Positions 6,003 through 52,063 of a stretch of DNA of 64,000 bases are shown piece by piece. The stretch comes from Candidatus Rokubacteria bacterium 13_1_40CM_68_15. Its GTDB lineage: Bacteria; Methylomirabilota; Methylomirabilia; Rokubacteriales; CSP1-6. Each line of letters begins with the position of its first letter. Positions within the stretch are counted from its first letter, which is position 1. The DNA lies in NCBI GenBank assembly GCA_001917585.1, contig MNEG01000048.1, positions 23,362-87,361 of the forward strand, written 5' to 3'. A program made the position numbers and the translations under genes. Below the pieces are notes generated by a model. The model searched no databases. It saw only the letters and a program-made list of their open reading frames with translations, and was not told the origin of the DNA.

Positions 6003-6332
6003 ATGAAGCCCAAGCTCAAGGTCTGGGTGACGTTCGGAGCCGACCTCAAGTTCGGAGACGGCCGCGCTCGACTCCTGGAATCCATCGCGCGGCGCGGCTC
6101 GCTTCGAAAGGCGGCCGAAGACTTCGAGATGTCCTATCGCAACGCGTGGGGCTACCTGCGGGACCTGGAAAGCGCCGCGGGGTTCAAGTTCGTGGAGCGG
6201 GCGCCGGGAGGAGGACCGCAGAGTGGGATGCGCCTGACCCGGGCCGGCCAGCGTTTCCTGACCCGCTACTGGAAGTTCCGGAATGGTCTCGATGACGCCA
6301 TGAAGCGGAATTTCGAGCGATCGTTTCGATGA
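6003..6332 (+). CDS. ModE N-terminal-domain-like (LysR-type winged-helix) transcriptional regulator, without Mop/TOBE domains
   Basis: 109 aa. GDGRARLLESIARRGSLRKAAEDFEMSYRNAWGYL resembles the ModE N-terminal HTH. It is coupled by ATGA to the next gene. Confidence 0.65.
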   Translation: MKPKLKVWVTFGADLKFGDGRARLLESIARRGSLRKAAEDFEMSYRNAWGYLRDLESAAGFKFVERAPGGGPQSGMRLTRAGQRFLTRYWKFRNGLDDAMKRNFERSFR

Positions 6333-11535: not shown

Positions 11536-11565
11536 TTGACACTCGCGCGGCTCCGGCGCTATAAA
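11536..11565 (+). promoter_or_regulatory. Sigma-70-like promoter candidate (TTGACA, 18 nt, TATAAA)
   Basis: ttgaca at 11536-11541 and tataaa at 11560-11565, in the gap after the ABC ATPase gene and about 130 nt upstream of the DUF465 start. Confidence 0.4.
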
Positions 11566-11623
11566 CAGTCACCCGCAACCAGGAACATCGGACGGGGGTT
11601 GGGTATTGACCAAGGCCACCACG

Positions 11624-11660
11624 AAGCCAGCGGCCACCGGGGCGCTGGCTTTGCTTGTTT
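11624..11660 (+). terminator. Intrinsic-terminator-like hairpin (9-bp perfect stem, 10-nt loop) followed by a T-rich tract
   Basis: aagccagcg-gccaccgggg-cgctggctt followed by tgcttgttt. It could terminate the upstream transporter operon or act as an attenuator in the DUF465-moaC leader. Confidence 0.45.
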
Positions 11661-11694
11661 CACACCGGTCCCGCCCACCGCACGGAGGCAATGC

Positions 11695-11916
11695 ATGACC
11701 CAGGAGAGCCTCATCGACCGACTGATGGCCGAGAACGAGGAGTTTCGCCGGCTTCGCGACGAGCATCAGCGTCACGATCGCGAGCTCGAGACACTCAAGG
11801 GGATCTCCCCGCTCTCGGCCGAACAAGAGTGGCGGATCACCGAGCTCAAGAAGCTCAAGCTCATGGCCAAGGACCGCATGGAGAGTATCCTCCGGCACGC
11901 GCGCGTCACGGCCTGA
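11695..11916 (+). CDS. DUF465 (YdcH-like) small protein
   Basis: 73 aa. ENEEFRRLRDEHQRHDRELETL...ELKKLKLMAKDRME matches the DUF465 pattern. ggagg lies 7 nt upstream of the ATG at 11695. Confidence 0.7.
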   Translation: MTQESLIDRLMAENEEFRRLRDEHQRHDRELETLKGISPLSAEQEWRITELKKLKLMAKDRMESILRHARVTA

Positions 11917-18783: not shown

Positions 18784-19995
18784 TCAGTTCAGCAGCATGT
18801 CGTGCGCGCGCGCCGAGCCACTCGGGAATTTCGTGAAGTCCACGTCGAAGAACGGATCGACCTTGAGCCGGCCATCGGGGCCGATGTGCACGAGACGCAC
18901 CCAGAACTTTTCCGAGTAGTCCATGGTGGACAGCAGCGAGTTGGTCACGTACATGCGCTTGCCGTCGCCGGTGACGTGCATCATGTTCGGCGACACGCCG
19001 GCCACCACCGTGTCGTGGAGTCGGGGCCGATCGGGCGTCGAGACGTCCCAGGCCTGGATCTCGCTCTTCATGAAGCAGGAGACGTAGAGGTAACGGTCGT
19101 CGGGCGACTGGCGGAGATCGGCGGGGAGGCAGCCCTTGCCGAGATCGGCCACCTTCTTCGTGCTGAACTTTCCGTCCTTCCCCTGGCCGAAGAACCAGAT
19201 CGAGTCGCCGAGCGCCGAGTTCGTCCAGCCGTAGGCCCGGCCGGGCTTGACGCTCCAGCGGACCTCGAGCGGCACGGGATCGGTCGTGAGCGTCTGGAGC
19301 ACCTTGCGCTCCTTGAAATCCCAGACGAGCAGCGTGTTCCCGCCGTCCTTCATGTCCCACTGGGACAGCGGCTTCCGGTAGTTCCGCAGCGCCGTGAAGC
19401 TCGACGTGATCATCCGGTTGACGTCCGGCTTCACCGCGACGTCGTACGCGTACGGAGAGTCGACCGGATTTTTGATCACGCGGACGAGCTCGCCGTCGTT
19501 GGTGAACTCGGCCATGCCGCCCGGCGGGTTGCCGTCTGCCGACGACAGGAAGGTCAGGAGCATCCGCCCGGGGAGCGCGTAGTAGGTGTGCGGCCCGTGC
19601 AGACCGGTGACCGCCGAGATGTCATCGATGGTCTTGACGATCGTCGGCCGAGCCGGATCGGCGGCGACGTCGATGATGAAGAGTCGCTTGGACAGGAGGG
19701 CGCCCAGCCAGATCTTGGTGCGGTCGTCACTCCATCCCATGTGGTGAGGCTCGTTGCCCGCCGAGCCGAGGCCGAGCGTGTGCACGACGCGGCCGTACGT
19801 CGGCGAGGCGAGGCTGACGTCGACCACCGCCAGGAAATCATTGTCCCGGCCGTCGGCGTCCACGGCAGAGACGTACAGGAACTTCTCCGGGCCGGCGAGG
19901 CGTTTGACGTACGGCGACAGACAGACCTCGGCGAAGACGGCGCCGGCGGCAACGAGGACCACGAGGACAGCGGCGATGACGATTCGACGTGACAT
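18784..19995 (-). CDS. SBP56 (selenium-binding protein 56 / methanethiol oxidase MtoX-like) family protein, secreted or anchored
   Basis: It aligns along its length with my recollection of human SELENBP1: DFLAVVDV..SPTYGRVVH, EPHHMGWS, LLVWDFKERKVLQTL, DDRYLYVSCF...AWDVSTPDRPRL, DGKRMYVTNSL. Confidence 0.85.
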   Translation of the reverse strand: MSRRIVIAAVLVVLVAAGAVFAEVCLSPYVKRLAGPEKFLYVSAVDADGRDNDFLAVVDVSLASPTYGRVVHTLGLGSAGNEPHHMGWSDDRTKIWLGALLSKRLFIIDVAADPARPTIVKTIDDISAVTGLHGPHTYYALPGRMLLTFLSSADGNPPGGMAEFTNDGELVRVIKNPVDSPYAYDVAVKPDVNRMITSSFTALRNYRKPLSQWDMKDGGNTLLVWDFKERKVLQTLTTDPVPLEVRWSVKPGRAYGWTNSALGDSIWFFGQGKDGKFSTKKVADLGKGCLPADLRQSPDDRYLYVSCFMKSEIQAWDVSTPDRPRLHDTVVAGVSPNMMHVTGDGKRMYVTNSLLSTMDYSEKFWVRLVHIGPDGRLKVDPFFDVDFTKFPSGSARAHDMLLN

Positions 19996-20004: not shown

Positions 20005-23000
20005 CTAAGAGATACGAGTCCGGTCGTGGAGGTGTCGGACGAACGCGGCGCGGTCGAGCGCCGCGCGCAGCTCGGTGTTCTGCAGCCGGCCGTGGATGCC
20101 CTCGATGACCGCGCGCGCAGCGCCATAGGCGGGCGCGGCCTCCTCGCGGCGGCCGGCGGCGTCGTGCAGCCGGCCGATGGCGGCGTGCGTGCGCCAGAGC
20201 TGGCCAGGATTGCCGACCTGTTGCGCAAGGCCGAGGGCCTGGTCGAGGGCGGCGCGCGCCTCGTCCCATTGCCGCCGGGTGGTGGCGATCTCCCCCTTGA
20301 GGCGCCAGCCCTTGACGAGGTTCTTGCGGGAGTTGGTGCGGGTCGCGATCTCGAGGCACCGATCGGCCCACGCCCGCGCCCGGTCGGGATTCCCGCGCGC
20401 GAGCTCGAGGTCGCCGAGGCTGGCAAAGAGGTGCGTCGAGTATCGCCACTTCATCCAGTCGCTCGTCGCCGGGTCCTTGATCAGACGGTGAACGCCGTCG
20501 AGGGTCTCGGCGGCCAGAGCCAGCTCGCCTCGCGCGATGCACGTGTCGCCGATGTTGATCTCGGCGTTGGCGAGCGTCTCGGGGTCGCCACGCTTGCGGG
20601 CGCCCTCGACGCAGCGGCGGTTGTAGTCGGCGGCGCGCTCGAGGTCGCCGAGCTCGCCCCACAGCCAGCCGAGCACGTTCAGGTCGCGCAGGTACATGAC
20701 TTCTTCGCCGACCTTCTCGCACAACACGAGACCTTCGTGCACGATGGTGTACGCCTCGTCGAAGTCCCCTTTGCCGCCGAGGACGACCGCCGACAGAAAG
20801 AGATTCCAGCAGAGCGGCAGCAGGACGCCGCTGTCGCGAGCGGCCTGGAGCGCAGCGGCGCGGAGAGGCGCCGCCTCGACGAAGTCGCCTTCCCAGTTCT
20901 TGGCGAGCCCCAGGAATCCCAGGGCAAACGCCTCGTGGACCTTGTCGCCCGCTTCCCGGCTCAGCGCGAGCGCGCTGAGGAGCTCCGGGCCGGCCTCCCC
21001 GAGCCGCTCGGTGACCGCGAGCACGAATCCGGTCGTAAAGCGTCCGGCAGCCTCCACGGCCTTGGCCTCGATGGCCTTGCCGATCGCTATCGCCTCGGCG
21101 GACTCGCTGAGCGCACGGTCGAACTCGTGGGCCCACATCGAGGCGAACCCCATCGTGGCGAGCGCCGACGCTTCCTTGACACGATCGCCAGCCCGCCGGG
21201 CCAGCGTCAGCAGATGCTCCGCCTCGGCGCGGGAGGTCACGAAGTCGCTCAGCAAGAAGTAAAGGTTCGCCTTGCTCTCGTGGATCGCCATCAAGGTCTC
21301 GAGGCCCACGGCAGTCCCGAGGTGGCCGGCGGCTTCCTGCGCCTGGTCGTAGAGCGCCACGGCTTCGCGGTTGGCGAAGGCTCGGGTCGCCTTGTCGGCG
21401 GCCTTCAACAGGTATTCGAGCGCGCGCGTCCAGTCCTCGGCCTTGGAGAAGTGGTGGGCGAGCACCTCGTAGTGCTCGGTCAGGCGATCGGCGTACAGCT
21501 CCTCGATGGCCAGCGCGATGATCCGGTGCAGCTCCTTCCGGCGCTGCACGAGCATCGAGTTGTAGGCGACGTCGTGGGTCAGCGCGTGCTTGAACATGTA
21601 GGCCAGCTCGGGGAAGAGGGCCTTTTCATAGATCAGCTCGATGGCCTTCAGCTCGGTCAGGAAGTCCTCGGTCCGCCCGTGCAGGTCGGCGATGCGATCG
21701 AGGAGTCTCCGCGTGAACTCGCGGCCGATGACGGACGCGAGCTGCAGCGTCTTCTTCGGCGCGTCGGCCAGCCGATCGATGCGCGCCATGATGACGTCCT
21801 GGATCGTGTCGGGGATGACGATCTCGTCGAGATGTCGGGTCAGGACATAGCGAGCGCCGTCCCGACGGATGACGCTCACCTCCTGCAGCGACTTCACGAC
21901 CTCTTCGACGAAGAACGGATTGCCTTCGGCCTTCCGGACGATCAGATGCTTGAGATCCTCGGGCAGGCTGTCGGTGTTGAGCATGGCCTGGGCCATGGCC
22001 ACGCTGGCCTCGCCAGGCAGGGTGTTGAGCGCGATCCGGGTGTGATACGACCGGTCGCCGAACGGATGCGTGTACCCGGTGCGATAGGTCAGGATGTGGA
22101 GGATCCGACTCGTCGGGATGATGTCGGCGGCATAGAGCAGGCTTTCCTCGGTGGCCTTGTCCATCCAGTGGACGTCCTCGTGCACCAGGATCTGCGGCCG
22201 GATCTCGGCGGCGCGCACGAGCAGTCGCCGCAGGGCGTCGAAGACTCCGGCTCGGCGTAGTTGGGCGTCCATCTCGACGACGGTCTGGTCGCCGACGTCC
22301 ACCGAGAGCAGGTAACGCAGATACGGCAAGATGGGGCGAAGGTCTTCGCCCAGGAGCAGGACGGCCCGCTCGACCTTCTTGATGATCGTGCCCTCGGCGT
22401 CTCCTTCCTCGAGACGGAAGGTGCGCTTGAGCATGTCGATGACGGGATGGAAGGCGATCGAGCGGCCGAACGAGATGCACCGCCCTTCGAGCCAGGTGGC
22501 TTGCTCGTCCACCTGCCGCCGGAACTCGTAGAGCAGCCGGGACTTGCCGATCCCGGGCTCCCCCACGATGAAGACGACCTGACCATGGCCGGCCTTGGCC
22601 TTGTCGAACGCGTCGAACAGCAGCCGGAGCTCGCGCTCGCGTGCGATGTACGGTGTCAGCCCGCGCTCGGCCTCGACGTCCAGACGCGTGCGGCCCTCGC
22701 GGGTCGCGATCACTTCCCATGCCTTCAGCGGCTCCGACTTTCCCTTGAGGGTCAGCGGCGCGAGCTCACGCGTGTAGAAGTAGGCCTCCACCAGCCGGTA
22801 CGTCCCGTCCGAGACGACGATGCGTCCGCGATCGGCCGCTTGCTGCAGTCGCGCCGCCACGTTCGTCGTGTCGCCGACGGCCGTGTAGTCCATGCGGAGG
22901 TCGGTGCCGATGGAGCCGACGACCACCAGCCCCGTGTTCAGGCCCTGCCGCACCTGGAAGCTCATCCATCGCTTGCGCTGCAGCTCCTCCTGATAGTCGT

Positions 23001-23517
23001 CGAGGGCCTTGCGGATCCCGAGCGCGGCGTGCACGGCGCGCTGAGCGTGGTCCTCGTGAGCGATCGGCGCGCCGAAGAGCGCCATGATCCCGTCGCCGAG
23101 GAACTGATTGACGGTGCCCTCGTAACGATGGACCTCGCCGAGCATGAGCTCGAAGGCGCGCGTCATCAAACGGTGGACGTCCTCGGGATCGAGACCCTCG
23201 GACATGGAGGTGAAGCCCGACACGTCCACGAAGAGCACGGTGACCTGTTTCCGCTCGCCTTCTAGCGCGCTGCGCGACGTGAGGATCTTCTCGGCCAGAT
23301 GCTTGGGCGTGTAGGCGGCCGGCGCGGGGGGCGCGGAGGTGACCGCGGGTGCGGACGCCGGCGTTCCGGCGAGGTCGGCGCCGCACGCGTCACAGAACCG
23401 GCTGCCAGGCTCCTGCGCGGCATTGCACCGGGGGCACAGGGCGGACAGACCCGCCCCGCATTGGCGGCAGAACTGCGCGCCCGGTCGGTTCTGGGTCTGG
23501 CACCGCGAGCATTGCAT
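20005..23517 (-). CDS. Multidomain signalling protein: double zinc ribbon, class III adenylate/guanylate cyclase, AAA/STAND-type NTPase, and a TPR-like helical array
   Basis: N-terminus CSRCQTQN..FCRQCG..CPRCNAAQ..FCDACG. Cyclase core VTVLFVDVSGFTSMSE...GDGIMALFGAP. Walker A GEPGIGKS. Long helical-repeat C-terminus. 1170 aa. Confidence 0.85.
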   Translation of the reverse strand: MQCSRCQTQNRPGAQFCRQCGAGLSALCPRCNAAQEPGSRFCDACGADLAGTPASAPAVTSAPPAPAAYTPKHLAEKILTSRSALEGERKQVTVLFVDVSGFTSMSEGLDPEDVHRLMTRAFELMLGEVHRYEGTVNQFLGDGIMALFGAPIAHEDHAQRAVHAALGIRKALDDYQEELQRKRWMSFQVRQGLNTGLVVVGSIGTDLRMDYTAVGDTTNVAARLQQAADRGRIVVSDGTYRLVEAYFYTRELAPLTLKGKSEPLKAWEVIATREGRTRLDVEAERGLTPYIARERELRLLFDAFDKAKAGHGQVVFIVGEPGIGKSRLLYEFRRQVDEQATWLEGRCISFGRSIAFHPVIDMLKRTFRLEEGDAEGTIIKKVERAVLLLGEDLRPILPYLRYLLSVDVGDQTVVEMDAQLRRAGVFDALRRLLVRAAEIRPQILVHEDVHWMDKATEESLLYAADIIPTSRILHILTYRTGYTHPFGDRSYHTRIALNTLPGEASVAMAQAMLNTDSLPEDLKHLIVRKAEGNPFFVEEVVKSLQEVSVIRRDGARYVLTRHLDEIVIPDTIQDVIMARIDRLADAPKKTLQLASVIGREFTRRLLDRIADLHGRTEDFLTELKAIELIYEKALFPELAYMFKHALTHDVAYNSMLVQRRKELHRIIALAIEELYADRLTEHYEVLAHHFSKAEDWTRALEYLLKAADKATRAFANREAVALYDQAQEAAGHLGTAVGLETLMAIHESKANLYFLLSDFVTSRAEAEHLLTLARRAGDRVKEASALATMGFASMWAHEFDRALSESAEAIAIGKAIEAKAVEAAGRFTTGFVLAVTERLGEAGPELLSALALSREAGDKVHEAFALGFLGLAKNWEGDFVEAAPLRAAALQAARDSGVLLPLCWNLFLSAVVLGGKGDFDEAYTIVHEGLVLCEKVGEEVMYLRDLNVLGWLWGELGDLERAADYNRRCVEGARKRGDPETLANAEINIGDTCIARGELALAAETLDGVHRLIKDPATSDWMKWRYSTHLFASLGDLELARGNPDRARAWADRCLEIATRTNSRKNLVKGWRLKGEIATTRRQWDEARAALDQALGLAQQVGNPGQLWRTHAAIGRLHDAAGRREEAAPAYGAARAVIEGIHGRLQNTELRAALDRAAFVRHLHDRTRIS

Positions 23518-26018: not shown

Positions 26019-28517
26019 GTGCGCGTGGCCCCGTCGGACCGCGTCTTCTATCTGACCACCCCGATCTACTACGTGAATGCGACGCCCCACCTGGGGCACG
26101 CCTACACGACGATCGTCGCCGACGCCATGGCCCGGTATCACCGGCTGGCCGGCCACGACGTGCGCTTCCTGACCGGCACCGACGAGCACGGCGACAAGAT
26201 CGCCCAGGCCGCGGCCAAGGCCGGCGTCCAGCCCCAGGCCTACACCGACCGCATCTCGGCCGCGTTCCGCCAGACGTGGCAGCGGCTCGGCATCAGCAAC
26301 GACGACTTCATCCGCACCACCGAGGAGCGGCACAAGACGATCGTGCAGCAGATTCTCCAGGCGCTCTGGGACGCCGGCGAGATCTACCTTGGCAAGTACG
26401 GCGGCCACTACTGCTTCGGCTGCGAGCGGTTCTACACCGAGAAGGAGATCGTCGACGGCAAGTGCCCCGATCACCAGACGCCGCTGACCTGGATCGAAGA
26501 GGAGAACTACTTCTTCAAGATGTCGAAGTACCAGGGCTGGCTGATCGACTACATCAACGCGCATCCCGACCTCATCCGACCCGAGCGCTATCGCAACGAG
26601 ATCCTGGGATTCCTGCGCGACCCGTTGCAGGACCTCTCCATCAGCCGGCCCCGCACGCGGCTCGAGTGGGGGATCCCGCTGCCGTTCGACGACAGGTACG
26701 TCACCTACGTGTGGTTCGACGCGCTCATCAATTACGTGTCGGCGCTCGGCAAGCCGGGCGGGGAGACGTTCAAGCGCTACTGGCCGCACGTCGAGCACCT
26801 CATCGGCAAGGACATCCTCAAGCCTCACGCCATCTACTGGCCGTGCATGCTCAAGGCGGTCGGCCTCGACGTCTTCCGCCATCTCGACGTCCACGGCTAC
26901 TGGAACATCGGTGGCGGCAAGATGTCCAAGTCCATCGGCAACGTGGTGGAGGCGCTGGCCCTGACCGACAAGTACGGCCACGACTACTGCTTCGGCTGCG
27001 AGCGGTTCTACACCGAGAAGGAGATCGTCGACGGCAAGTGCCCCGATCACCAGACGCCGCTGACCTGGATCGAAGAGGAGAACTACTTCTTCAAGATGTC
27101 GAAGTACCAGGGCTGGCTGATCGACTACATCAACGCGCATCCCGACCTCATCCGACCCGAGCGCTATCGCAACGAGATCCTGGGATTCCTGCGCGACCCG
27201 TTGCAGGACCTCTCCATCAGCCGGCCCCGCACGCGGCTCGAGTGGGGGATCCCGCTGCCGTTCGACGACAGGTACGTCACCTACGTGTGGTTCGACGCGC
27301 TCATCAATTACGTGTCGGCGCTCGGCAAGCCGGGCGGGGAGACGTTCAAGCGCTACTGGCCGCACGTCGAGCACCTCATCGGCAAGGACATCCTCAAGCC
27401 TCACGCCATCTACTGGCCGTGCATGCTCAAGGCGGTCGGCCTCGACGTCTTCCGCCATCTCGACGTCCACGGCTACTGGAACATCGGTGGCGGCAAGATG
27501 TCCAAGTCCATCGGCAACGTGGTGGAGGCGCTGGCCCTGACCGACAAGTACGGCCACGACGCCTTCCGCTACTTCCTCATGCGCGAGATGACGTTCGGCC
27601 TCGACGCTGACTTCTCGGAGGAGGCGCTCGTCGGCCGGCTGAACGCCGACCTCGCGAACGACCTCGGCAACCTCGTCTCGCGAGCGACGACGCTGCTGGC
27701 CAGGGCCGAGCCGACCGAGGATCCACAAAAGGCCTTCGTCCCAGCCGACCAGGAGGTCCGGGCTACGGCGGACGAAGCGCGCCACCGCGTCGAGCTGGCG
27801 ATGGAACAGTTCGCGTTGCACCGGGCGCTCGAGGCCATCTGGGAGTTCATCGGCTCGGTAAATCGGTACATCGACACCACCCAGCCCTGGGCCCTCGCGA
27901 AGGATCCGGCCAAGGCTTCCGAGCTCAATCGTGTGCTCGCGACGCTGGCCGACTCGCTGCGCTTCCTCGGCGTCATCCTCGCGCCGTTCCTTCCCGACGC
28001 AGCAGCCAAGATCCGGCGCGCGATCGGCGACGACCGTGAGCCTTCGCTGGCCAATGCGGTGGTGGGAAGAATCAACACGATCCCGCGCGTCGAGCGCCTG
28101 TCCGGACTTTTCCCCCGGGTCGAGGACAAGGCGCGGCCCGAGCGTCCGGCCGGCGCAGCCGAGGCCGGCGTGGCGTCGCAGGCCGCGACGTCGGGACGCG
28201 TCACCATCGACGAGTTCGGGAAGCTCGACTTCCGGGTGGCCGAGGTCATCGCGGCCGAACCCGTCCCCAAATCCCAAAAACTCCTGAAGCTCACGGTCTC
28301 GCTGGGGGATTCCCAGCGGACGCTGGTCGCCGGCATTGCCGAGCACTACACGCCGGCGGATCTCGTCGGCAAGAAGGTCGTGATCGTCGCCAACCTCGAG
28401 GCGGCCAAGCTCATGGGCATCGAGTCCCAGGGCATGGTGCTGGCGGGCTCGGCCGGCGATCGGCTGGCCGTCGTCACGCCGGACCGGGACCTGCCACCGG
28501 GCGCCCGGGTGAAATGA
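26019..28517 (+). CDS. metG: Methionine--tRNA ligase with a C-terminal tRNA-binding (Trbp111/EMAP-like) domain, carrying an internal 192-aa exact tandem duplication
   Basis: HLGHAYTT (HIGH motif), KMSKS present twice, Zn-knuckle CFGCERF...CPDHQ present twice, C-terminal FGKLDFRVAEVI. 832 aa as written; it would be 640 aa without the duplication. Confidence 0.9.
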   Translation: MRVAPSDRVFYLTTPIYYVNATPHLGHAYTTIVADAMARYHRLAGHDVRFLTGTDEHGDKIAQAAAKAGVQPQAYTDRISAAFRQTWQRLGISNDDFIRTTEERHKTIVQQILQALWDAGEIYLGKYGGHYCFGCERFYTEKEIVDGKCPDHQTPLTWIEEENYFFKMSKYQGWLIDYINAHPDLIRPERYRNEILGFLRDPLQDLSISRPRTRLEWGIPLPFDDRYVTYVWFDALINYVSALGKPGGETFKRYWPHVEHLIGKDILKPHAIYWPCMLKAVGLDVFRHLDVHGYWNIGGGKMSKSIGNVVEALALTDKYGHDYCFGCERFYTEKEIVDGKCPDHQTPLTWIEEENYFFKMSKYQGWLIDYINAHPDLIRPERYRNEILGFLRDPLQDLSISRPRTRLEWGIPLPFDDRYVTYVWFDALINYVSALGKPGGETFKRYWPHVEHLIGKDILKPHAIYWPCMLKAVGLDVFRHLDVHGYWNIGGGKMSKSIGNVVEALALTDKYGHDAFRYFLMREMTFGLDADFSEEALVGRLNADLANDLGNLVSRATTLLARAEPTEDPQKAFVPADQEVRATADEARHRVELAMEQFALHRALEAIWEFIGSVNRYIDTTQPWALAKDPAKASELNRVLATLADSLRFLGVILAPFLPDAAAKIRRAIGDDREPSLANAVVGRINTIPRVERLSGLFPRVEDKARPERPAGAAEAGVASQAATSGRVTIDEFGKLDFRVAEVIAAEPVPKSQKLLKLTVSLGDSQRTLVAGIAEHYTPADLVGKKVVIVANLEAAKLMGIESQGMVLAGSAGDRLAVVTPDRDLPPGARVK
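26407..27558 (+). repeat. Perfect head-to-tail tandem duplication of 576 bp (copy 1 at 26407-26982, copy 2 at 26983-27558), in frame inside metG
   Basis: Base-by-base reading shows the two copies are identical. Identity extends 2 nt further, to 27560. A ggccac motif occurs just upstream of copy 1 and again at the 3' end of both copies. Confidence 0.95.
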
Positions 28518-32323: not shown

Positions 32324-33085
32324 ATGATCGTGACGGTCGGCGTCGTCGGCGACTTCGATCCCGGATTCCGTGCCCATCGCGCGACGGACGCGGCCCTCGG
32401 TCACGCGGCCCACGCGTTGTCCATCGCCGTCGACGTGCGCTGGTTGCCCACCGCGGCGCTGACGGCCGCGGACGCGGCGCCGACCCTCGAGCGCTGCGAC
32501 GGCCTGTGGATCGCGCCGGGCAGCCCGTATCAAAGCCTCGACGGAGCGCTGCGCGCCATCCGATTCGCGCGTGAACGGGATTGGCCCCTCGTGGCTACCT
32601 GAGGGGGCTTCCAACATGCTCTGTTAGAGTATGCGCGCAACGTCGCCGGGCTCCCGAACGCCCACCACGCCGAGTACGGTGGCGAGGCCGCGTCGGCGCT
32701 CATCGCGCCGATTGCGTGCGCCGTCACCGGCCGCGCTCCCGGCGCCGCCGCGCTGTCCGGCCCCCGGATGAAGGTCAGCGTGGTGGCCGGCACGCGCGCC
32801 GCCACGATCTACGGGCACCACGTGATCGAGGAGGAGTTCTTCTGCAACTACGGACTGAATCCTGAGTACCAGCAGCGCCTGGTGGCGGGCGGGCTCTCGC
32901 TGACCGGTTTCGATGAGCGCGGCGAGGTGCGGATGGCTGAGCTGCGCGATCGGCGCTTCTATCTGGCCACGCTGTTCCTTCCCCAGCTCGCCTCGACCGA
33001 GTCCAGCCCTCATCCGGTGGTCGTCGCGTTCGTCCGAGCGTCGGCGGCGTTCGCCGCGTCGCGTCCCGTCGCCTCGCTGACGTGA
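32324..33085 (+). CDS. CTP-synthase-C-terminal-domain-like (class I amidotransferase fold) protein with an in-frame TGA at 32600-32602 in place of the nucleophile Cys. Candidate selenoprotein; the alternative is a pseudogene.
   Basis: The ORFs at 32324-32602 and 32768-33085 are in the same frame, with no other stop between them. The joined translation reads ...RFARERDWPLVAT[TGA]GGFQHALLEYARNVAG...FYLATLFLPQLASTESSPHPVVVAFVRAS. It parallels E. coli PyrG ...PYFGICLGMQVALI.YAR.VA...[28 protein letters not shown]. Confidence 0.65.
32615..32633 (+). promoter_or_regulatory. Candidate bacterial SECIS hairpin (8-bp stem with one G-U pair, GUU loop), 12 nt downstream of the TGA at 32600
   Basis: catgctct-gtt-agagtatg. 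It is built from the codons CAT GCT CTG TTA GAG TAT, which look rare for this GC-rich sequence. Confidence 0.55.
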
Positions 33086-35373
33086 CCGCGCCCGCCGGCC
33101 GCTACATCGGGGCTCCGCTCAAGCGCGTGGAGGACCGCGCGCTCATGACCGGCGGTGGCCGCTACGTCGACGACATCGCCGTGCCGGGCGTGCTTCACGT
33201 GCACTTCGTGCGCAGCCCGCACGGCCACGCGCGCATCGTGCGCCTCGACGCCAGCGCGGCGCGCCGCGCCGCCGGTGTCGTGGCGGTCGTGACGGCCGGC
33301 GACATCAAGCATCTCGGCCAGCCGTCGGTGAATGCGTTTTTCCCCGACATGAAGATCGCGCCTTTTCCACTCCTGGCTGGCGACGCCGTGCGCTTCGTCG
33401 GCGAGCCGATGCTCGCCATCGTGGCCGAGACCCTGCCCGCCGCCCGCGATGCCGCCGATCTGGTCGAGATCGAGTACGAGCCGCTGGCCGCGGTGGTGGA
33501 CGCCGAGAGCGCGCAGGCGGCGACGGCTCCGATCGTCCACGAGAGCCTCGGGACCAATCGGGCTCTCGCCGCGGCCTGGCGCGCGGGCGACGCCGCCACG
33601 GCCTTCGCCTCGGCGCCGCACGTCGTCCGCGTCAGTGTCGACCAGACGCGCGTCGCCGCCGTCACGATGGAGCCGCGCGGATGTCTCGCCCGGTACGACA
33701 CCGCCGCCGAGGAGCTGACGGTGTGGCTCACGACCCAGGTACCGTTCCGGGCCCGCGGGGAGATCGCCGCGGTCATCGGCTTCGGGGAGCACCGGATTCG
33801 CGTCATCGCTCCGGACATCGGCGGCGGATTCGGCGCGAAGGGCACGACGTATCGCGACGAGATCCTCGTGGCGTGGCTGGCTGTCTTCCTGCGCCGCCCG
33901 GTGAAGTGGATCTCCACCCGGACCGAAGATCTCATGACGACGCAGCACGGCCGTGGCGCGCGCGCCCACGGGGAGCTGGCCGTGAATGGCGAGGGGAAGA
34001 TCACCGGGTTGCGCGCGCGCATCGCGGTCGCGCTCGGCTCCCAGCTCGTCGTCAACGGCGCCGGGCCGGTGCGCAATCACGGCCGGACGATGCCGGGCGC
34101 CTACGTGGTGCCCGCGGTCGACATCCAGGCGACCGCCGCATACACCACAACGATGTCCACCGGGCCGTATCGCGGGGCCGGCCGCCCGGAGGGCATCTTC
34201 GTGATGGAGCGCCTGATGGACGAGGCCGCTCACGCGCTCGGCCTGGATCCTGCCGACATTCGCCGACGCAACCTCGTGCCCGCCGACGCGTTTCCGTATC
34301 GGACGTCGACGGGGCAGGTCTACGACTCCGGTAATTACAAGGACGCGTTCGAGCAGGCCCTCACGCTGGCCGAGTACGGTCGCCGGCGCGCCGAGCAGGC
34401 GGAGGCCCGCAAGCGTGGCGACATCGTGGGTGTCGGTCTCGCCGCGTACGTCGAGCCGTCGGCGCTCGGCTGGGAATCCGGCAGTGTGCGCATCGAGCGC
34501 ACTGGTGTCGTCACCGTCGTCACGGGCTCGAGCGCTCATGGTCAGGGCCATGAGACGACGTGGGCCCAGATCGCGGCCGACATCCTCGGCGTGCCCCCCG
34601 AGCACATCCGCGTCCGCCACGGCGACACGCAGGCGGCGCCCCAGGGCGTCGGCACGTTCGGCAGCCGCTCCACCGCGCTCGGCGGCAGCGCGGTGTATCG
34701 CGCGGCCGGTGAGGTCCGGGAAAAAGGCCGGCGTCTGGCCGCCACACTCCTCGAGGCGGCTCCGGCCGACGTGATGCCGGTCGCCGGCGGCTGGGAAGTC
34801 CGCGGCGTCCCCGGCCGTCGCGCGACGTGGGCGCAGGTGGCCGATCTCGCCTATCGCGGCACCGGCTTGCCGCGCGGTGAGGCGCCTGGACTCGACGCCA
34901 CCGTGTTCTTCAACGCCGAGGGCGAGGTGTGGTCGTTCGGAACGTGCGTCGCGACCGTCACGATCGATCGCGACACGGGCCGCGTGACGCTCACGCGCTG
35001 TGTCTGGGTGGACGACGCCGGCACCATCATCAATCCGCTGCTGGCCGAAGCGCAGCTGCACGGCGGCTACGCCCAGGGCGCCGGGCAGGCGCTCATCGAA
35101 GGCGTCTTCTACGATGCCGGCGGCCAGCTCCTGACGGCGACGCTCATGGACTACGCGGCTCCGCGCGCCGACGATTTTCCGGAGCCGGTGCTCGGTGAGA
35201 TGCACACGCCGTCGCCCAACAATCCGCTCGGCGTCAAGGGCCTGGGCGAGGCGGGCTGCATCGCGCTGCCGCCGGCGATCGTGAACGCCGTGGTCGATGC
35301 CCTCCGCCCGTGGGGATGCACGCACGTCGACATGCCGCTCACCTCCGAGAAGGTCTGGCGCATTCTCCACTGA
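33082..35373 (+). CDS. Xanthine dehydrogenase/CODH family molybdopterin-binding large subunit (CoxL-like, AYRGAGR-type loop), without adjacent FAD or FeS subunit genes
   Basis: GTG start in a GTGA overlap with the preceding gene. GAPLKRVEDRALMTGGGRYVDD, HFVRSPHGHARI, GGGFGAKG, STGPYRGAGRPEG. Confidence 0.9.
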   Translation: MTAPAGRYIGAPLKRVEDRALMTGGGRYVDDIAVPGVLHVHFVRSPHGHARIVRLDASAARRAAGVVAVVTAGDIKHLGQPSVNAFFPDMKIAPFPLLAGDAVRFVGEPMLAIVAETLPAARDAADLVEIEYEPLAAVVDAESAQAATAPIVHESLGTNRALAAAWRAGDAATAFASAPHVVRVSVDQTRVAAVTMEPRGCLARYDTAAEELTVWLTTQVPFRARGEIAAVIGFGEHRIRVIAPDIGGGFGAKGTTYRDEILVAWLAVFLRRPVKWISTRTEDLMTTQHGRGARAHGELAVNGEGKITGLRARIAVALGSQLVVNGAGPVRNHGRTMPGAYVVPAVDIQATAAYTTTMSTGPYRGAGRPEGIFVMERLMDEAAHALGLDPADIRRRNLVPADAFPYRTSTGQVYDSGNYKDAFEQALTLAEYGRRRAEQAEARKRGDIVGVGLAAYVEPSALGWESGSVRIERTGVVTVVTGSSAHGQGHETTWAQIAADILGVPPEHIRVRHGDTQAAPQGVGTFGSRSTALGGSAVYRAAGEVREKGRRLAATLLEAAPADVMPVAGGWEVRGVPGRRATWAQVADLAYRGTGLPRGEAPGLDATVFFNAEGEVWSFGTCVATVTIDRDTGRVTLTRCVWVDDAGTIINPLLAEAQLHGGYAQGAGQALIEGVFYDAGGQLLTATLMDYAAPRADDFPEPVLGEMHTPSPNNPLGVKGLGEAGCIALPPAIVNAVVDALRPWGCTHVDMPLTSEKVWRILH

Positions 35374-39897: not shown

Positions 39898-40227
39898 TTG
39901 CTAGAATCACGGGCCGTGGCCGCCGAGCCTCGTCGAACGACTCCCTGGCTGATCGTCGTCGCCGCGGTCCTGCTGGCAGGACTTCTGGCTTACACCGTCT
40001 TTGCCGGCTGGGTTCCGACCAAGCAGCGGATGACACGTCTCGAGGCGGAGATGAAGGACGTCTACGCGCGGGAAGCGGCGCTGCAGACGAGGCTGGCCCA
40101 GCAGGAGCAACGGTCGACGATGCGCGAGCAGCAGCTCAATGCGCTGCGCAGCGAGCGCGACGAGCTCGCCCGCCGCGTCGAAGACCTCGAGCGGGAGCTG
40201 GCCGCCGCCCGCGCTCGCCGCCGTTAA
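39898..40227 (+). CDS. Membrane-anchored coiled-coil protein (109 aa)
   Basis: One TM helix (WLIVVAAVLLAGLLAYTVFAGW) followed by a heptad-like region rich in E, R, Q and L. The start is TTG at 39898 or GTG at 39916. Confidence 0.55.
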   Translation: MLESRAVAAEPRRTTPWLIVVAAVLLAGLLAYTVFAGWVPTKQRMTRLEAEMKDVYAREAALQTRLAQQEQRSTMREQQLNALRSERDELARRVEDLERELAAARARRR

Positions 40228-40898
40228 GCTCCCAGTCCCAACAGCCGGGGCAAGCGCCGGCCGAAGACCTCGGCGGCGACCTTGAACGTCTCGACCACGG
40301 TTGCCGCGGCGCCGTCGGCGCGCGTCGCGTTCCACCACCGACCCAGATGCTCTTCCGACCGGAAGAAGTTGATCGTGTGTCAGAGGCCGGCGCAGGCCTT
40401 CGCCCGGATGTCCTCGCGCTTGGCCAGCCACACCATCGCCGGCGTCGGCTCGAGCGGCCCGTCGGGGGCGATGCGCAGCACGAGTGGTTCGCCGCAGTCG
40501 TGGCAGCGGGAGTGGATCGTGAGCGTCTCGCCCATGAGCGTGGCGGCGCCAAGGGCATCGAACGCGCAGCAGGCATACCGGGGGCGTCCATCGGCAGGCT
40601 CGAGACGGAACGCGTTCATCCTGGCGCTGAACGGATAGGCGAGGACGATGGCGCCGGCCTCGACCAGCACCAGATCGAACTCGTCCAGCTCCGCGACGGC
40701 GGCGGCGACCTCGGTGGGCTCGTGATCCGGCAGCAACCCGGCCACGGGAAGCGCGCCTTCGCCAGCGGCCAGGCGACGAATGATCGCACCGAGGACGCGC
40801 CGAGCAACCGGACCGATGGCCTCACGCTCCGTCCACCTGGCCTGGAACGCGGCATCCATCAGCTCCTCGGCGAGCTTGACGGCGTAGCCTGACGCCAC
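40224..40898 (-). CDS. MerB-like organomercurial (alkylmercury) lyase family protein with an in-frame TGA at 40380-40382 aligned to catalytic Cys159 of MerB. Candidate selenoprotein; the alternative is a truncated gene or pseudogene.
   Basis: The listed ORF 40380-40898 ends ...KACAGL[TGA]. The same frame continues HTINFFRSEEHLGRWWNATRADGAAATVVETFKVAAEVFGRRLPRLLGLGA to a TAA at 40224. RYACCAFDALG matches MerB YAWCALDTL (Cys96/Asp99). [TGA]HTINFF matches CCHVHFF, gapless on the FF pair. Confidence 0.65.
40350..40367 (-). promoter_or_regulatory. Candidate bacterial SECIS hairpin (7-bp stem, GGUC loop), 12 nt downstream of the TGA at 40380-40382
   Basis: The minus strand reads uga-cacacgaucaac-UUCUUCC-GGUC-GGAAGAG. 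As I recall, GGUC is also the apical loop of the E. coli fdhF SECIS. Confidence 0.55.
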
Positions 40899-51688: not shown

Positions 51689-51985
51689 CTAGTACGCCCA
51701 GTGCCCGGGTACCCAGACCCAGGCGTATCCATTCCATACCCACTGGCTCGGGTACCACGCCGGCTGAATCACCGGCGTCCCCACGCTACCCGGGGCGACT
51801 GCCACACCTCCGGGCCCTGGGACGACGACCGTCGTATGCCGGTGCTGGTGTCCCCAGGATGCCCACGGGTCCCGGTAGGTAGGGAAGACGCTGGGCTGTC
51901 CGACGAGCTGACCTGCCGAGGCGGGGCCGATCGCGACACCGACCATCACCGTGATCCCCAGAGCCAGCAGCAGCAGCCGTTTCAT
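51689..51985 (-). CDS. Small secreted Trp/Tyr-rich protein (YXWGXW-repeat-like C-terminus)
   Basis: Signal peptide MKRLLLLALGITVMVGVAIGPASA. C-terminus WYPSQWVWNGYAWVWVPGHWAY. gggagg lies upstream of the ATG at 51985. Confidence 0.6.
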   Translation of the reverse strand: MKRLLLLALGITVMVGVAIGPASAGQLVGQPSVFPTYRDPWASWGHQHRHTTVVVPGPGGVAVAPGSVGTPVIQPAWYPSQWVWNGYAWVWVPGHWAY

Positions 51986-52063
51986 ATAGAATGCCTCCCT
52001 GCCACATGTGACGTGACCGGTCCCGTGACCATTCACGTAGAGCGTGTTCCTGGGAGGACGGCG

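What the first reader, a model, noticed from the sequence alone, without database searches (positions are those of the whole stretch)
32324..33085. Amidotransferase-fold protein with UGA at the nucleophile cysteine position, followed by a SECIS-like hairpin: candidate selenoprotein
- **Seen in sequence:** ORFs 32324-32602 and 32768-33085 share one frame, and the only stop between them is the TGA at 32600-32602.
- **Homology, from my memory of E. coli PyrG:** both halves are collinear with the C-terminal glutamine amidotransferase domain of CTP synthase.
- **Nucleophile position:** the TGA sits exactly where PyrG has Cys379. The window reads PLVAT-[TGA]-GGFQHALLEYARNVAG; PyrG reads PYFGI-C-LGMQVALI.YAR.VA.
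- **Rest of the triad:** the block carrying the PyrG triad His/Glu (QFHPEF) reads LFLPQL here. The protein would therefore not be a canonical glutaminase, and a Sec or Cys residue may serve another (redox or transfer) role.
- **Hairpin:** 12 nt after the TGA is an 8-bp hairpin, catgctct/agagtatg, with a GUU loop.
- **Codon usage in the hairpin:** it is encoded with codons that look rare in this GC-rich DNA (CAA CAT GCT CTG TTA GAG TAT). This argues for selection on RNA structure rather than for decay.
- **Geometry:** a loop starting with G, about 20 nt from the UGA, matches published bacterial SECIS descriptions.
- **Novelty caveat:** I have an unverified recollection that a 'CTP synthase C-terminal region-related (seleno)protein' family name exists in NCBI annotation. 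If it does, this is a new member rather than a new family.
Basis: partly seen in the sequence, partly recalled or inferred. Interest (0 to 1): 0.85.

Follow-up and report, generated by a model that had tools for sequence, protein, structure and literature searches.

The report
Known amidotransferase-like selenoprotein, new Rokubacteria member
This gene really does appear to use an in-frame UGA plus a conserved RNA hairpin to insert selenocysteine at the active-site nucleophile of a small CTP-synthase-like protein, but the family and its selenoprotein form are already catalogued, so this is a new member rather than a discovery.

Summary
One frame (32324-33085, +) is interrupted only by TGA at 32600-32602, followed 12 nt later by an 8-bp hairpin with a GUU loop.

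[quoted passage not shown] The Sec form was published in 2025 (deep-Sep) and is tabulated in a 2026 review.

**Evidence for recoding**
- Of 81 relatives found by protein patterns, 71 have TGC/TGT and 9 have TGA at this column.
- All TGA copies keep the hairpin (97.5% of cells paired; core MFE -9.7 vs -2.7 kcal/mol in Cys forms).
- dN/dS is 0.2-0.5 downstream of the TGA.
- The hairpin uses codons almost unused in this 69%-GC DNA (TTA: 0 of 14,912).
- A second gene in the window (MerB-like, 40224-40898, minus strand) also has UGA at a Cys column plus a hairpin. So the organism, a Rokubacteria relative, probably decodes Sec.

**Limits**
- No selA, selB, selD or tRNA-Sec gene lies in the window.
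- The whole family lacks the glutaminase triad His and Glu but has two invariant extra cysteines. Its chemistry is unknown.

**Verdict:** a correct call and a new member of a known kind, of modest interest.

The parts
32324..33085 (+). Complete recoded coding sequence: 253 codons plus a TGA stop. It encodes a stand-alone CTP-synthase-C-terminal-like (class I glutamine amidotransferase fold) selenoprotein of family NF004836.
   Evidence: - Single frame with one internal TGA.
- NF004836: 288 bits against a cutoff of 260, covering profile positions 2-227 of 228.
- 37% identical (E = 9e-55) to the published D. ganghwensis Sec protein.
- AlphaFold pLDDT 90.8; Foldseek TM 0.83-0.86 to CTPS glutaminase domains.
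- dN/dS 0.2-0.5 on both sides of the TGA.
32600..32602 (+). In-frame UGA read as selenocysteine (residue 93), at the nucleophile-elbow Cys position in the motif T-U-G-G-F-Q.
   Evidence: - Aligned to the catalytic Cys of solved CTP synthases.
- The same column is TGC in 52, TGT in 19 and TGA in 10 of the fetched loci plus the window.
- It is Cys in 116 of 121 database family proteins, and 3 more show 'W', i.e. TGA mistranslated.
32615..32633 (+). Bacterial SECIS-type hairpin: stem 32615-32622 / 32626-32633 (8 bp), apical loop GUU at 32623-32625. It begins 12 nt after the UGA, with 20 nt from the UGA to the loop.
   Evidence: - -8.5 kcal/mol, z = -2.68; meets the four bSECIS criteria quoted.
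- 97.5% of cells paired across 10 UGA orthologs, with U-A<->C-G and G.U<->A-U changes.
- Mean core MFE -9.7 kcal/mol in Sec forms vs -2.7 in 71 Cys forms, p = 3e-6.
- Built from codons nearly unused in this genome.
33082..35373 (+). Downstream xanthine-dehydrogenase/CoxL-family molybdopterin-binding large subunit. Its GTG start overlaps the selenoprotein's TGA stop (GTGA). This is context only.
   Evidence: - NF041018: 675 bits, below its cutoff of 790, plus other XDH-family models.
- The adjacency is kept in the close relatives L001 and L002 but in none of the other 79 family loci.
- It does not recur among the 47 larger Sec loci.

Best explanation
Window 32324-33085 (+) is one gene, not two.

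**How recoding works (inferred from the established bacterial mechanism).** When the ribosome reaches UGA at 32600-32602, the hairpin at 32615-32633 (8-bp stem, GUU loop, 20 nt downstream) acts as a bacterial SECIS element. It recruits SelB-GTP-Sec-tRNA(Sec), so selenocysteine is inserted instead of terminating. Shown here: the UGA and the hairpin are co-conserved, and the downstream sequence is under purifying selection. Inferred: SelB binding and Sec, rather than another residue, at position 93.

**What is made.** The product is a 253-residue stand-alone protein with the fold of the CTP synthase glutaminase domain. It belongs to NCBIfam family NF004836. Sec93 sits at the nucleophile elbow, in the motif T-U-G-G-F-Q.

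**What the protein probably does (inference, low confidence, about 0.3).**
- The whole family has lost the triad His (here Leu219) and Glu (here Gln221). It has also altered the oxyanion loop (PGSPY) and the PyrG 'RHRYE' strand (here FCNYG).
- It keeps Q97 in all 121 family proteins examined and an acidic residue at position 117 (Glu in 101, Asp in 20). From my memory of PyrG structures, these correspond to residues that hold the amino-acid end of glutamine.
- It has two invariant family-specific cysteines, C132 and C174.
- My reading is that it is not a classical Cys-His-Glu glutaminase. More likely it uses the Sec/Cys nucleophile for thiol/selenol-based redox or group-transfer chemistry on an amino-acid-like substrate, possibly with C174 or C132 as partner thiols.

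**Host.** The host is a Rokubacteria (Candidatus Rokuibacteriota) relative. A second UGA-at-Cys gene in the same window supports the idea that this organism decodes Sec.
For: - **Family membership.** NF004836 at 288 bits against a cutoff of 260. The family is listed as a selenoprotein with motif GxUxG in a 2026 review. It was first reported by deep-Sep in D. ganghwensis, and that protein is 37% identical to this one, with Sec at the same column.
- **Cys/Sec pairing.** 52 TGC, 19 TGT and 10 TGA at the column in loci found by protein patterns independent of the hairpin.
- **Hairpin meets the bSECIS criteria**.
- **Hairpin is conserved only with UGA.** 97.5% of cells paired, one compensatory pair (UA:7, CG:3) and a G.U/A-U alternation (5:5), against 11-62% paired when partners are slid. 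Sec vs Cys core MFE is -9.7 vs -2.7 kcal/mol, p = 3e-6. The rival MFE fold is only 81.7% paired, with 5 of 12 pairs often broken.
- **RNA-level selection.** TTA is used 0 times in 14,912 codons elsewhere in the window; P(codon choice | peptide) is about 2.5e-8.
- **Read-through.** All 10 UGA orthologs keep 148-163 open codons after the UGA. The first in-frame start varies from +13 to +55. dN/dS is 0.2-0.5 in the segment that can only be translated by read-through.
- **UGA is not reassigned.** 20 of 33 window genes, including this one, end in TGA.
- **Organism probably decodes Sec.** The MerB-like gene at 40224-40898 (-) has TGA at a column that is Cys in full-length homologs and in MerB2 (PDB 5c17). 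It has a 7-bp GGUC-loop hairpin 19 nt downstream (-7.8 kcal/mol). Both features are invariant in two relatives of about 80% identity.
- **Lineage.** The window is syntenic at about 90% amino-acid identity with a Rokuibacteriota MAG that also has the TGA. Sec use is reported in Methylomirabilota, Acidobacteriota and Chloroflexota. GTDB places Rokubacteria in Methylomirabilota; that placement is my own knowledge.
- **Widespread Sec form.** At least 120 metagenome stretches match the UGA+hairpin pattern, and all 73 distinct ones examined encode T-UGA-GGFQH.
- **Function inference.** The triad columns are V/Q/L and Q in 121 family proteins. C132, C174, Q97 and R203 are invariant in 121 of 121.
Against: - **Sec machinery not seen.** No selA, selB or selD was found among about 45 window ORFs scanned, and there is no tRNA gene at all in the window or in nine Sec loci. 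This is uninformative for 64 kb of a multi-megabase genome.
- **No Rfam family matched**.
- **Wider fold is unexceptional.** The 71-nt context has z = -0.75 and prefers a different MFE structure.
- **Covariation is thin.** Only one pair shows true compensatory change in the 10 independent orthologs. In the pattern-selected metagenome set that pair is U-A in 71 and a C.A mismatch in 2, with no C-G.
- **Some Cys forms also fold.** A few form a hairpin at this spot (GCGCUC-AUC-GAGUGC, down to -11 kcal/mol), though without a G-initial loop.
- **Residue identity is unproven.** Nothing here shows that the inserted residue is Sec rather than Cys.
- **Function is weakly grounded.** Gene neighbourhoods are not conserved. 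The proximity of C132 and C174 to Sec93 could not be measured, because model coordinates are not exposed. No experimental literature on the family was found.
Confidence: 0.87

Rival explanations
1. The UGA is recoded, but to cysteine rather than selenocysteine. A non-canonical tRNA (selC*, also called tRNA-ReC) charged with Cys would be delivered by SelB to the same SECIS hairpin.
For: - Such tRNAs and UGA-to-Cys recoding in the presence of a SECIS are described in the literature cited (Vargas-Rodriguez et al. 2018, as quoted there).
- Nothing in the sequence distinguishes Sec from Cys insertion.
- Cys is the residue at this column in most family members.
Against: - No tRNA of any kind is in the window, so there is no positive evidence for it.
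- Keeping a costly UGA+SECIS only to insert Cys, when TGC or TGT would do, is unparsimonious as the main purpose across 130 loci from several phyla.
- The family is curated and published as a selenoprotein.
Confidence: 0.05
2. The gene is broken or split. The TGA is a genuine stop, from a nonsense mutation or pseudogene. Alternatively, the two ORFs (92 aa and 105 aa, as public gene callers annotate them) are made as separate polypeptides.
For: - Automatic gene calls on two identical public contigs split it into 92-aa and 105-aa products.
- Long open frames arise easily by chance in 69%-GC DNA.
Against: - TGA at this exact column recurs in 130 loci from contigs of 39-68% GC.
- 148-163 codons stay open downstream, even in a 49%-GC genome.
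- dN/dS is 0.2-0.5 in the 55 codons that have no start codon in this window, and the first downstream start is not conserved (+13 to +55).
- Those codons encode the family's most conserved motif (GGFQ...EYARN).
- A split would cut the nucleophile elbow in two.
Confidence: 0.03
3. The TGA is a sequencing or assembly error for TGC or TGT in this window.
For: A single-base difference (A vs C or T) separates the Sec and Cys codons. Read data are not available here.
Against: - The identical region occurs in two independent ENA assemblies.
- Relatives at about 80% identity (L001, L002) have the same TGA together with the same hairpin.
- The hairpin's rare codons would be inexplicable if the codon were Cys.
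Confidence: 0.01
4. Rival on function. The protein is still a glutamine-hydrolysing amidotransferase, either a glutaminase subunit for an unidentified synthase partner or a free glutaminase. The low pKa and high nucleophilicity of Sec or Cys, plus some other base, would compensate for the missing His and Glu.
For: - The fold and nucleophile elbow are those of the PyrG glutaminase domain.
- Q97 is invariant and position 117 is always acidic (E 101, D 20). From my memory of PyrG structures, these match glutamine-binding residues.
- JGI and NCBI annotate homologs as CTP synthase or glutamine amidotransferase.
Against: - The triad His and Glu are absent in all 121 family proteins examined.
- The oxyanion loop (PGGFG to PGSPY) and the RHRYE strand are changed.
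- No synthase partner is conserved next to the gene in 47 Sec loci or about 80 genome loci.
- Two invariant extra cysteines have no role in the classical mechanism.
- PyrG equivalog models score far below their cutoffs (126 vs 308 and 463 bits).
Confidence: 0.2

Closest known systems
[quoted passage not shown] Its Sec form was reported as 'glutamine amidotransferase (COG0504, PyrG)' in Desulfosediminicola ganghwensis IMCC35004 (Xiao & Zhang 2025, deep-Sep, PMC12013277) and tabulated in Zhang et al. 2026 (PMC13188914).
   Same: - Scores above the curated cutoff over the full model.
- Sec is at the same column in the same motif: G/A-T-U-G/S-G-F-Q-H-A-L-[LV]-E-Y-A.
- Same family signatures: TLFxPQL, C132, C174 and PHP.
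   Different: - Only 37% identical to the published example, and from a different phylum: a Rokubacteria relative rather than Desulfobacterota.
- In this lineage the gene is translationally coupled to an XDH-family Mo-binding subunit.
- The papers held in the library give no function, and I found no published statement that the triad His and Glu are missing family-wide.
Glutaminase (class I amidotransferase) domain of CTP synthase PyrG, for example PDB 3NVA, 1VCO, 1S1M and 2V4U
   Same: - Same fold (TM 0.83-0.86).
- Collinear over about 240 residues (E = 1e-25).
- Nucleophile elbow at the same position.
- The conserved Gln of the C-x-G-x-Q motif and an acidic residue after it are retained.
   Different: - Stand-alone, with no synthetase domain.
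- Nucleophile is Sec.
- Triad His is replaced by Leu (V/Q/L in the family) and Glu by Gln.
- The PGGFG oxyanion loop is PGSPY, and RHRYE is FCNYG.
- Two extra invariant cysteines are present.
- Fails the PyrG equivalog cutoffs.
Bacterial SECIS elements, as in the consensus model of Zhang & Gladyshev summarised in PMC13188914 (prototype: E. coli fdhF)
   Same: - Lies in the coding sequence immediately 3' of the UGA.
- Small apical loop starting with G followed by U or G.
- 20 nt from the UGA to the loop, an 8-bp stem and MFE of -8.5 kcal/mol, so all four criteria are met.
   Different: - A very short, simple hairpin with a 3-nt loop and no bulged U.
- Its primary sequence (CAYRCUCU-GKU-AGAGURUG) is almost invariant across phyla and across contigs of 39-69% GC. 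Bacterial SECIS elements of one family usually drift in sequence.
- SelB binding is untested.

Membership tests
[quoted passage not shown] | Whole-protein HMM score at or above the curated cutoff (260 bits), with near full-length coverage | tested here: met
   288 bits, E = 3.6e-86. Protein residues 4-240 match profile positions 2-227 of 228, with TGA read as Cys.
[quoted passage not shown] | Sec or Cys at the nucleophile column of the published GxUxG / T-[C/U]-G-G-F-Q motif | tested here: met
   - The window reads A-T-UGA-G-G-F-Q.
- The column is C in 116, TGA-derived W in 3 and U in 2 of 121 proteins.
- At the DNA level it is TGC 52, TGT 19 and TGA 10.
- The published Sec member aligns at the same column.
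[quoted passage not shown] | Family-specific signature residues, as derived here: TLFxPQ in place of PyrG's HPE block, and invariant C132, C174 and R203 | tested here: met
   All are present in the window protein. F218, P220, C132, C174 and R203 are invariant in 121 of 121 family proteins.
Bacterial SECIS element (consensus model quoted in PMC13188914) | Apical loop of 3-9 nt on an upper stem of 4-16 bp | tested here: met
   3-nt loop (GUU) on an 8-bp stem.
Bacterial SECIS element (consensus model quoted in PMC13188914) | G in one of the first two loop positions, usually followed by G or U | tested here: met
   The loop is GUU here. It is GUU or GGU in the other orthologs, and GGUCG in L028.
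Bacterial SECIS element (consensus model quoted in PMC13188914) | 16-37 nt between the UGA and the apical loop | tested here: met
   20 nt (32603-32622).
Bacterial SECIS element (consensus model quoted in PMC13188914) | Minimum free energy of -7.5 kcal/mol or lower | tested here: met
   -8.5 kcal/mol for the hairpin alone.
Bacterial SECIS element (consensus model quoted in PMC13188914) | Structure conserved in UGA-containing orthologs and not required in Cys orthologs | tested here: met
   - 97.5% of cells paired in 10 UGA orthologs, with one compensatory pair.
- Core MFE -9.7 vs -2.7 kcal/mol in Sec vs Cys forms, p = 3e-6.
Bacterial SECIS element (consensus model quoted in PMC13188914) | Binds SelB and directs Sec insertion | not testable with these tools
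   This needs a binding or reporter assay, or selenium labelling.
Sec-decoding organism | selA, selB, selC (tRNA-Sec) and selD present in the genome | tested here: inconclusive
   None was found in the 64-kb window: about 45 ORFs were scanned against NCBIfam and ARAGORN found no tRNA. The rest of the genome is not available. Sec use is reported in the wider phylum.
Sec-decoding organism | At least one other selenoprotein gene (UGA at a Cys column plus a SECIS) in the same genome | tested here: met
   The MerB-like gene at 40224-40898 (-) has TGA at a Cys column, a GGUC-loop hairpin 19 nt downstream, and homology that continues past the TGA. These features are conserved in relatives.
Class I (triad) glutamine amidotransferase / PyrG glutaminase domain | Fold and nucleophile elbow | tested here: met
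   Pfam PF00117 at 26.9 bits against a cutoff of 22.8. Foldseek TM 0.83-0.86 to CTPS glutaminase domains. The nucleophile column is aligned.
Class I (triad) glutamine amidotransferase / PyrG glutaminase domain | Catalytic His and Glu of the Cys-His-Glu triad (H-P-E block) | tested here: not met
   PyrG 'aHPEf' aligns to 'fLPQl' here. Across 121 family proteins the His column is V 60, Q 49, L 12, and the Glu column is Q 118, S 2, P 1.
Class I (triad) glutamine amidotransferase / PyrG glutaminase domain | PyrG equivalog HMM cutoffs (NF003792: 308 bits; TIGR00337: 462.75 bits) | tested here: not met
   126.6 and 125.9 bits, matching the C-terminal domain only.

The most novel reading that the evidence does not exclude
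The NF004836 family is not a glutaminase at all. It would be a previously unrecognised thiol/selenol enzyme built on the amidotransferase fold. Its catalytic Sec or Cys at the nucleophile elbow would work with two invariant, family-specific cysteines (C132, C174) instead of the His-Glu pair, for example in a selenenylsulfide/disulfide redox cycle or a sulfur/selenium or acyl transfer on an amino-acid-like substrate. The Sec form, with its almost sequence-invariant SECIS, would be ancestral and repeatedly lost to Cys.
Probability: 0.3. Interest if true: 0.55.

Novelty: new member of a known kind. Interest (0 to 1): 0.3.

Why it matters
**For annotation.** Public gene callers split this gene into two hypothetical ORFs of 92 and 105 aa. 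In some pipelines the UGA is translated as Trp. Recognising the gene as one selenoprotein corrects the annotation for a widespread soil gene: at least 120 metagenome stretches matched the pattern.

**For biology.**
- It adds a Rokubacteria relative to the hosts of this selenoprotein.
- Together with the MerB-like gene, it indicates that these abundant, uncultured soil bacteria use selenocysteine.
- The more interesting open point is biochemical. The family keeps the amidotransferase nucleophile, as Cys or Sec, but has no catalytic His or Glu and has two invariant extra cysteines, so its reaction is unknown. A Sec/Cys pair usually marks a redox-active or catalytic residue, which makes the family a tractable target for finding new chemistry on an old fold.

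None of this changes the fact that the family and its Sec form are already catalogued.

Tried and rejected
- **Rfam gathering scan of the whole window:** no hits. This is uninformative, because no Rfam family matched.
- **Thermodynamics of the wider context:** z-scores of -0.75, 0.04 and -0.26. Stability alone does not single out the site. The alternative MFE fold that includes the UGA was tested on the orthologs and rejected: 81.7% paired, 5 of 12 pairs frequently broken, covariation no better than shuffles.
- **Sec machinery:** no tRNA in the window or in nine Sec loci. No selA, selB or selD among about 45 ORFs.
- **Functional link to the overlapping Mo-hydroxylase gene:** rejected as a general clue. 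The adjacency exists only in the window, L001 and L002. A MOSC-domain neighbour in L047 is a single case.
- **Conserved neighbourhood:** none was found. Nine Sec genome loci have unrelated neighbours. Among 47 larger Sec loci, the only recurrent neighbour is a short-chain dehydrogenase, in 7. MsrA/MsrB-like neighbours in the Terriglobia Cys loci reflect shallow synteny.
- **Single origin of the Sec forms:** rejected. In a neighbour-joining tree with the SECIS-encoded peptide masked, the Terriglobia Sec forms sit next to Terriglobia Cys forms.
- **Covariation from the metagenome scan:** the hits were selected by the hairpin pattern itself, so they cannot be used for conservation. The one free pair gave U-A 71 and C.A 2.
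- **Other in-frame TGA candidates:** a GC3-based scan found no convincing hit besides 32600. It missed the MerB-like gene because that gene's downstream part is only 51 codons.
- **Literature:** no paper on the family's function. The Cell Reports paper on a Methylomirabilota MAG with 63 predicted selenoprotein genes is not held.
- **Distances between Sec93, C132 and C174:** these could not be measured, because model coordinates are not exposed.
Full report
**1. The observation**

- On the + strand, one reading frame runs from ATG 32324 to TGA 33083-33085. Its only internal stop is TGA at 32600-32602.
- No ATG, GTG or TTG lies in frame for 55 codons after that TGA.
- Twelve nucleotides after the TGA, CAUGCUCU (32615-32622) pairs with AGAGUAUG (32626-32633) around a GUU loop.
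- Folded alone, this hairpin gives -8.5 kcal/mol, z = -2.68.
- In wider context the fold is not exceptional (z = -0.75), and the MFE structure is a different one that includes the UGA. Stability alone would not be convincing.

- The window is 69% GC, and only 11.8% of codons end in A or T.
- TTA is used 0 times in 14,912 codons of 33 other genes. GCT is 5.9% of Ala codons and CAA 9.4% of Gln codons.
- Only 0.14% of 7-codon windows contain five or more A/T-ending codons.
- The probability of this codon choice, given the peptide, is about 2.5e-8.

**2. What the protein is**

[quoted passage not shown] The score is 288 bits against a curated cutoff of 260, covering nearly the whole model.
- The PyrG models match only their C-terminal domain and fall far below their cutoffs.
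- Pfam GATase is just above its threshold.
- An AlphaFold model built on 23 sequences is confident (pLDDT 90.8, pTM 0.90). Its best PDB matches are all CTP synthase glutaminase domains (TM 0.83-0.86).
- Sequence alignment to solved CTP synthases puts the TGA on the catalytic Cys ('gi-C-fgfq'). It aligns PyrG's 'a-H-P-E-f' with 'f-L-P-Q-l'.

The selenoprotein form is also published. It was predicted in Desulfosediminicola ganghwensis by deep-Sep, with TGA- and Cys-containing homologs noted. It is listed with motif GxUxG under NF004836 in a 2026 review. The window protein is 37% identical to that published protein (E = 9e-55), with Sec at the same column.

**3. Is the UGA really read through?**

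A scan of one genome per species, using protein patterns that do not include the hairpin, returned 80 loci. With one metagenome contig and the window, the nucleophile codon is TGC in 52, TGT in 19 and TGA in 10.

The TGA copies come from MAGs labelled Rokuibacteriota, Terriglobia/Acidobacteriota, Chloroflexota/Dehalococcoidia and "Clostridia". All ten carry a hairpin at the same place, with consensus CAYRCUCU-GKU-AGAGURUG. L028 uses a shifted register and a GGUCG loop.

Evidence that the hairpin is the conserved structure:
- On the 10-sequence alignment, 97.5% of cells pair. One pair shows compensatory change (U-A in 7, C-G in 3) and another alternates A-U and G.U (5 and 5).
- Sliding the partners drops pairing to 11-62%.
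- The competing MFE fold is only 81.7% paired, with 5 of its 12 pairs broken in 4-6 sequences.
- The 27-nt core folds at a mean of -9.7 kcal/mol in Sec forms, against -2.7 in the 71 Cys forms (Mann-Whitney p = 3e-6).

Evidence that the downstream part is translated:
- All ten TGA orthologs keep 148-163 open codons after the TGA, including one from a 49%-GC contig.
- The first possible restart codon is not conserved (+13 to +55).
- dN/dS is 0.2-0.5 in the N-terminal part, in the stretch between the TGA and the first start, and in the rest.

UGA is not reassigned in this genome. It is the commonest stop (20 of 33 genes) and also terminates this gene.

All 73 distinct sequences examined encode T-UGA-GGFQH, on contigs of 39-68% GC. 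These hits were selected by the pattern, so they show prevalence, not independent conservation. The one free pair was U-A in 71 and C.A in 2.

**4. Does the organism decode Sec?**

The window contains no tRNA. No selA, selB or selD was found among about 45 ORFs scanned. That says little for 64 kb of a larger genome.

The window is syntenic with a Rokuibacteriota MAG contig (L002, QHTB01000143). Neighbouring proteins are about 90% identical and the selenoprotein 80%, so the source is a Rokubacteria relative.

Independent support came from an unplanned observation. A MerB-like gene on the minus strand (start 40898) has an in-frame TGA at 40380-40382, followed by 51 more open codons to a TAA at 40224-40226.
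- Read-through lengthens the MerB match from residues 33-169 (42.8 bits) to 33-216 (62.5 bits).
- The TGA aligns to a Cys in the MerB2 crystal-structure sequence and in four full-length homologs ('RACTSI-C-LTLNFFRSEEHL'). Eight homolog clusters are called as ending exactly there.
- A 7-bp hairpin with a GGUC loop lies 19 nt downstream (-7.8 kcal/mol).
- In two relatives of about 80% identity, the TGA, the hairpin and the downstream frame are intact.

Two UGA-at-Cys genes with SECIS-type hairpins in one 64-kb window make Sec decoding by this organism likely.

The literature reports Sec-containing enzymes and frequent selABCD in Methylomirabilota, Acidobacteriota and Chloroflexota MAGs. It also reports a Methylomirabilota MAG with 63 predicted selenoprotein genes. 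That GTDB places Rokubacteria in Methylomirabilota is my own knowledge.

**5. How it most likely works**

The recoding step follows the standard bacterial mechanism. SelB carrying Sec-tRNA(Sec) binds the hairpin as the ribosome reaches the UGA. This is inferred from the anatomy and the comparative data, not shown directly.

The enzymatic function is unknown. Across 121 family proteins:
- the PyrG His column is V, Q or L, and never His;
- the Glu column is Q in 118;
- the nucleophile is never replaced by an ordinary residue;
- C132, C174, Q97 and R203 are invariant.

C174 replaces a His of PyrG's 'RHRHRYE' strand, and C132 ends a strand following the conserved acidic residue. From my memory of PyrG structures, both regions line the glutamine pocket.

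I therefore favour, at about 0.3, a non-glutaminase role in which the Sec/Cys nucleophile does redox or group-transfer chemistry, possibly with these cysteines. About 0.2 goes to a still-glutaminase reading.

Context gives little help:
- The overlapping Mo-hydroxylase gene is lineage-specific.
- Neighbours of the Sec loci are unrelated.
- One homolog is fused to an F420H2-dependent reductase-family domain.
- The Terriglobia Cys loci have MsrA/MsrB-like neighbours.

These are weak hints towards redox, nothing more.

**6. Evolution**

With the SECIS-encoded peptide masked, the Sec forms are not monophyletic. The Terriglobia Sec forms are closest to Terriglobia Cys forms, yet they carry essentially the same hairpin sequence as the Rokubacteria and Chloroflexota copies. 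A few Cys forms retain a hairpin-like palindrome without a G-initial loop. The simplest reading is an old Sec form that has repeatedly converted to Cys. This is an inference.

**7. Rivals**
- UGA-to-Cys recoding by a selC*-type tRNA cannot be excluded from sequence, but it has no positive support.
- A pseudogene, a split gene or a sequencing error are each contradicted by the conservation data.

**8. Verdict**

This is a new member, from a Rokubacteria relative, of an already named and published selenoprotein family. Interest is modest. It rests mainly on the family's unexplained chemistry and the unusually invariant SECIS, with the second selenoprotein gene in the window as a useful by-product.

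Noticed in passing
window 40224-40898 (-); TGA at 40380-40382; hairpin 40350-40367: Second selenoprotein candidate: a MerB-like (PF03243) gene with an in-frame TGA at a column that is Cys in MerB2 (PDB 5c17) and in full-length homologs. After the TGA there are 51 more conserved codons. A 7-bp hairpin with a GGUC loop lies 19 nt downstream (-7.8 kcal/mol). The TGA and hairpin are invariant in two relatives of about 80% identity (L204, L205). The gene scores below the cutoffs of MerB (62.5 vs 193 bits) and of the known selenoprotein family SaoL (49.5 vs 140 bits), so it may be a distinct MerB-like subfamily.
   Followed up: yes
proteins P0072, P0080, P0102 (JGI metagenome gene calls): These family members have 'W' at the nucleophile column, followed by GGFQHAL[LVI]EYARNV. 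They are almost certainly Sec forms whose TGA was translated as Trp by a gene caller using an alternative code. They are annotated 'CTP synthase (UTP-ammonia lyase)'.
   Followed up: partly
L082 2133-2411 and 2577-2894; L083 (ENA assemblies ERZ27285562 and ERZ27285634): Two public contigs carry the window's Mo-subunit protein exactly and have the same gene layout around it. Their automatic gene calls split the selenoprotein gene into unannotated 92-aa and 105-aa ORFs with no Pfam hit.
   Followed up: partly
L042, L079, L081, L054, L024, L077 (Cys-form loci), at the position equivalent to window 32611-32637: Some Cys-containing orthologs still form a stable hairpin at the SECIS position (for example GCGCUC-AUC-GAGUGC, -8 to -11 kcal/mol), but the loop does not start with G. 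These may be relics of a former Sec form, or a by-product of the A-L-I-E-C-A peptide.
   Followed up: no
NJ tree of 82 family proteins (loci L001-L081, the window and D. ganghwensis): Sec forms are scattered among Cys forms rather than forming one clade. Even so, they share a nearly identical hairpin sequence across phyla and across 39-69% GC.
   Followed up: partly
window 18784-19995 (-): A 403-aa protein resembling methanethiol oxidase MtoX, the SELENBP1 ('selenium-binding protein') family. It scores 307 bits, below the cutoff of 650. No link to selenium metabolism in this organism was tested.
   Followed up: no
window 3596-5926 (+) and 33082-35373 (+); also 6329-7180 (+) and 9316-10434 (+): There are two xanthine-dehydrogenase/CoxL-family molybdopterin-binding large subunits. 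No 2Fe-2S or FAD subunit was identified among the neighbouring ORFs I scanned. A TupA-like tungstate-binding protein and a molybdate/tungstate-type ABC ATPase are also present.
   Followed up: no
window 51701-53596 (+), 53601-55133 (+), 55257-56270 (+), 56278-58191 (+): Two tandem UbiD-family decarboxylase paralogs, the first with an N-terminal extension of about 140 aa. They are followed by a TAXI-type TRAP solute-binding protein and a fused TRAP permease, which looks like an aromatic-acid uptake and decarboxylation cluster.
   Followed up: no
protein P0088 (413 aa, JGI): A family member fused at its C-terminus to a PF04075 domain (F420H2-dependent quinone/nitroreductase family). This is the only fusion among the top 120 hits and a weak hint of a redox context.
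   Followed up: no
Terriglobia Cys-form loci (e.g. L044 at +1240..+1914 and L057 at +925..+1539, relative to the nucleophile codon): Two ORF clusters recur downstream of the family gene, in 27 and 26 loci. By motif recognition only (not scanned against any family library), they look like methionine sulfoxide reductases MsrA (GCFWG motif) and MsrB. The loci are mostly closely related Acidobacteria, so this is shallow synteny.
   Followed up: no
window 26019-28517 (+): The methionine-tRNA ligase is 832 aa, against a 648-position model (NF008900), and matches that model in two stretches. This suggests an insertion of about 180 residues in the N-terminal half.
   Followed up: no
window 20005-23517 (-): A 1170-aa protein with partial similarity to TOMM-system kinase/cyclase fusion proteins and TPR regulators (340 bits, below the cutoff of 706).
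   Followed up: no
window 11914 (+): Another in-frame TGA flanked by high-GC3 sequence on both sides ('[20 protein letters not shown]'), flagged by the GC3 scan. The upstream ORF 11536-11916 has no family match. It is probably a gene end followed by chance open frame.
   Followed up: no
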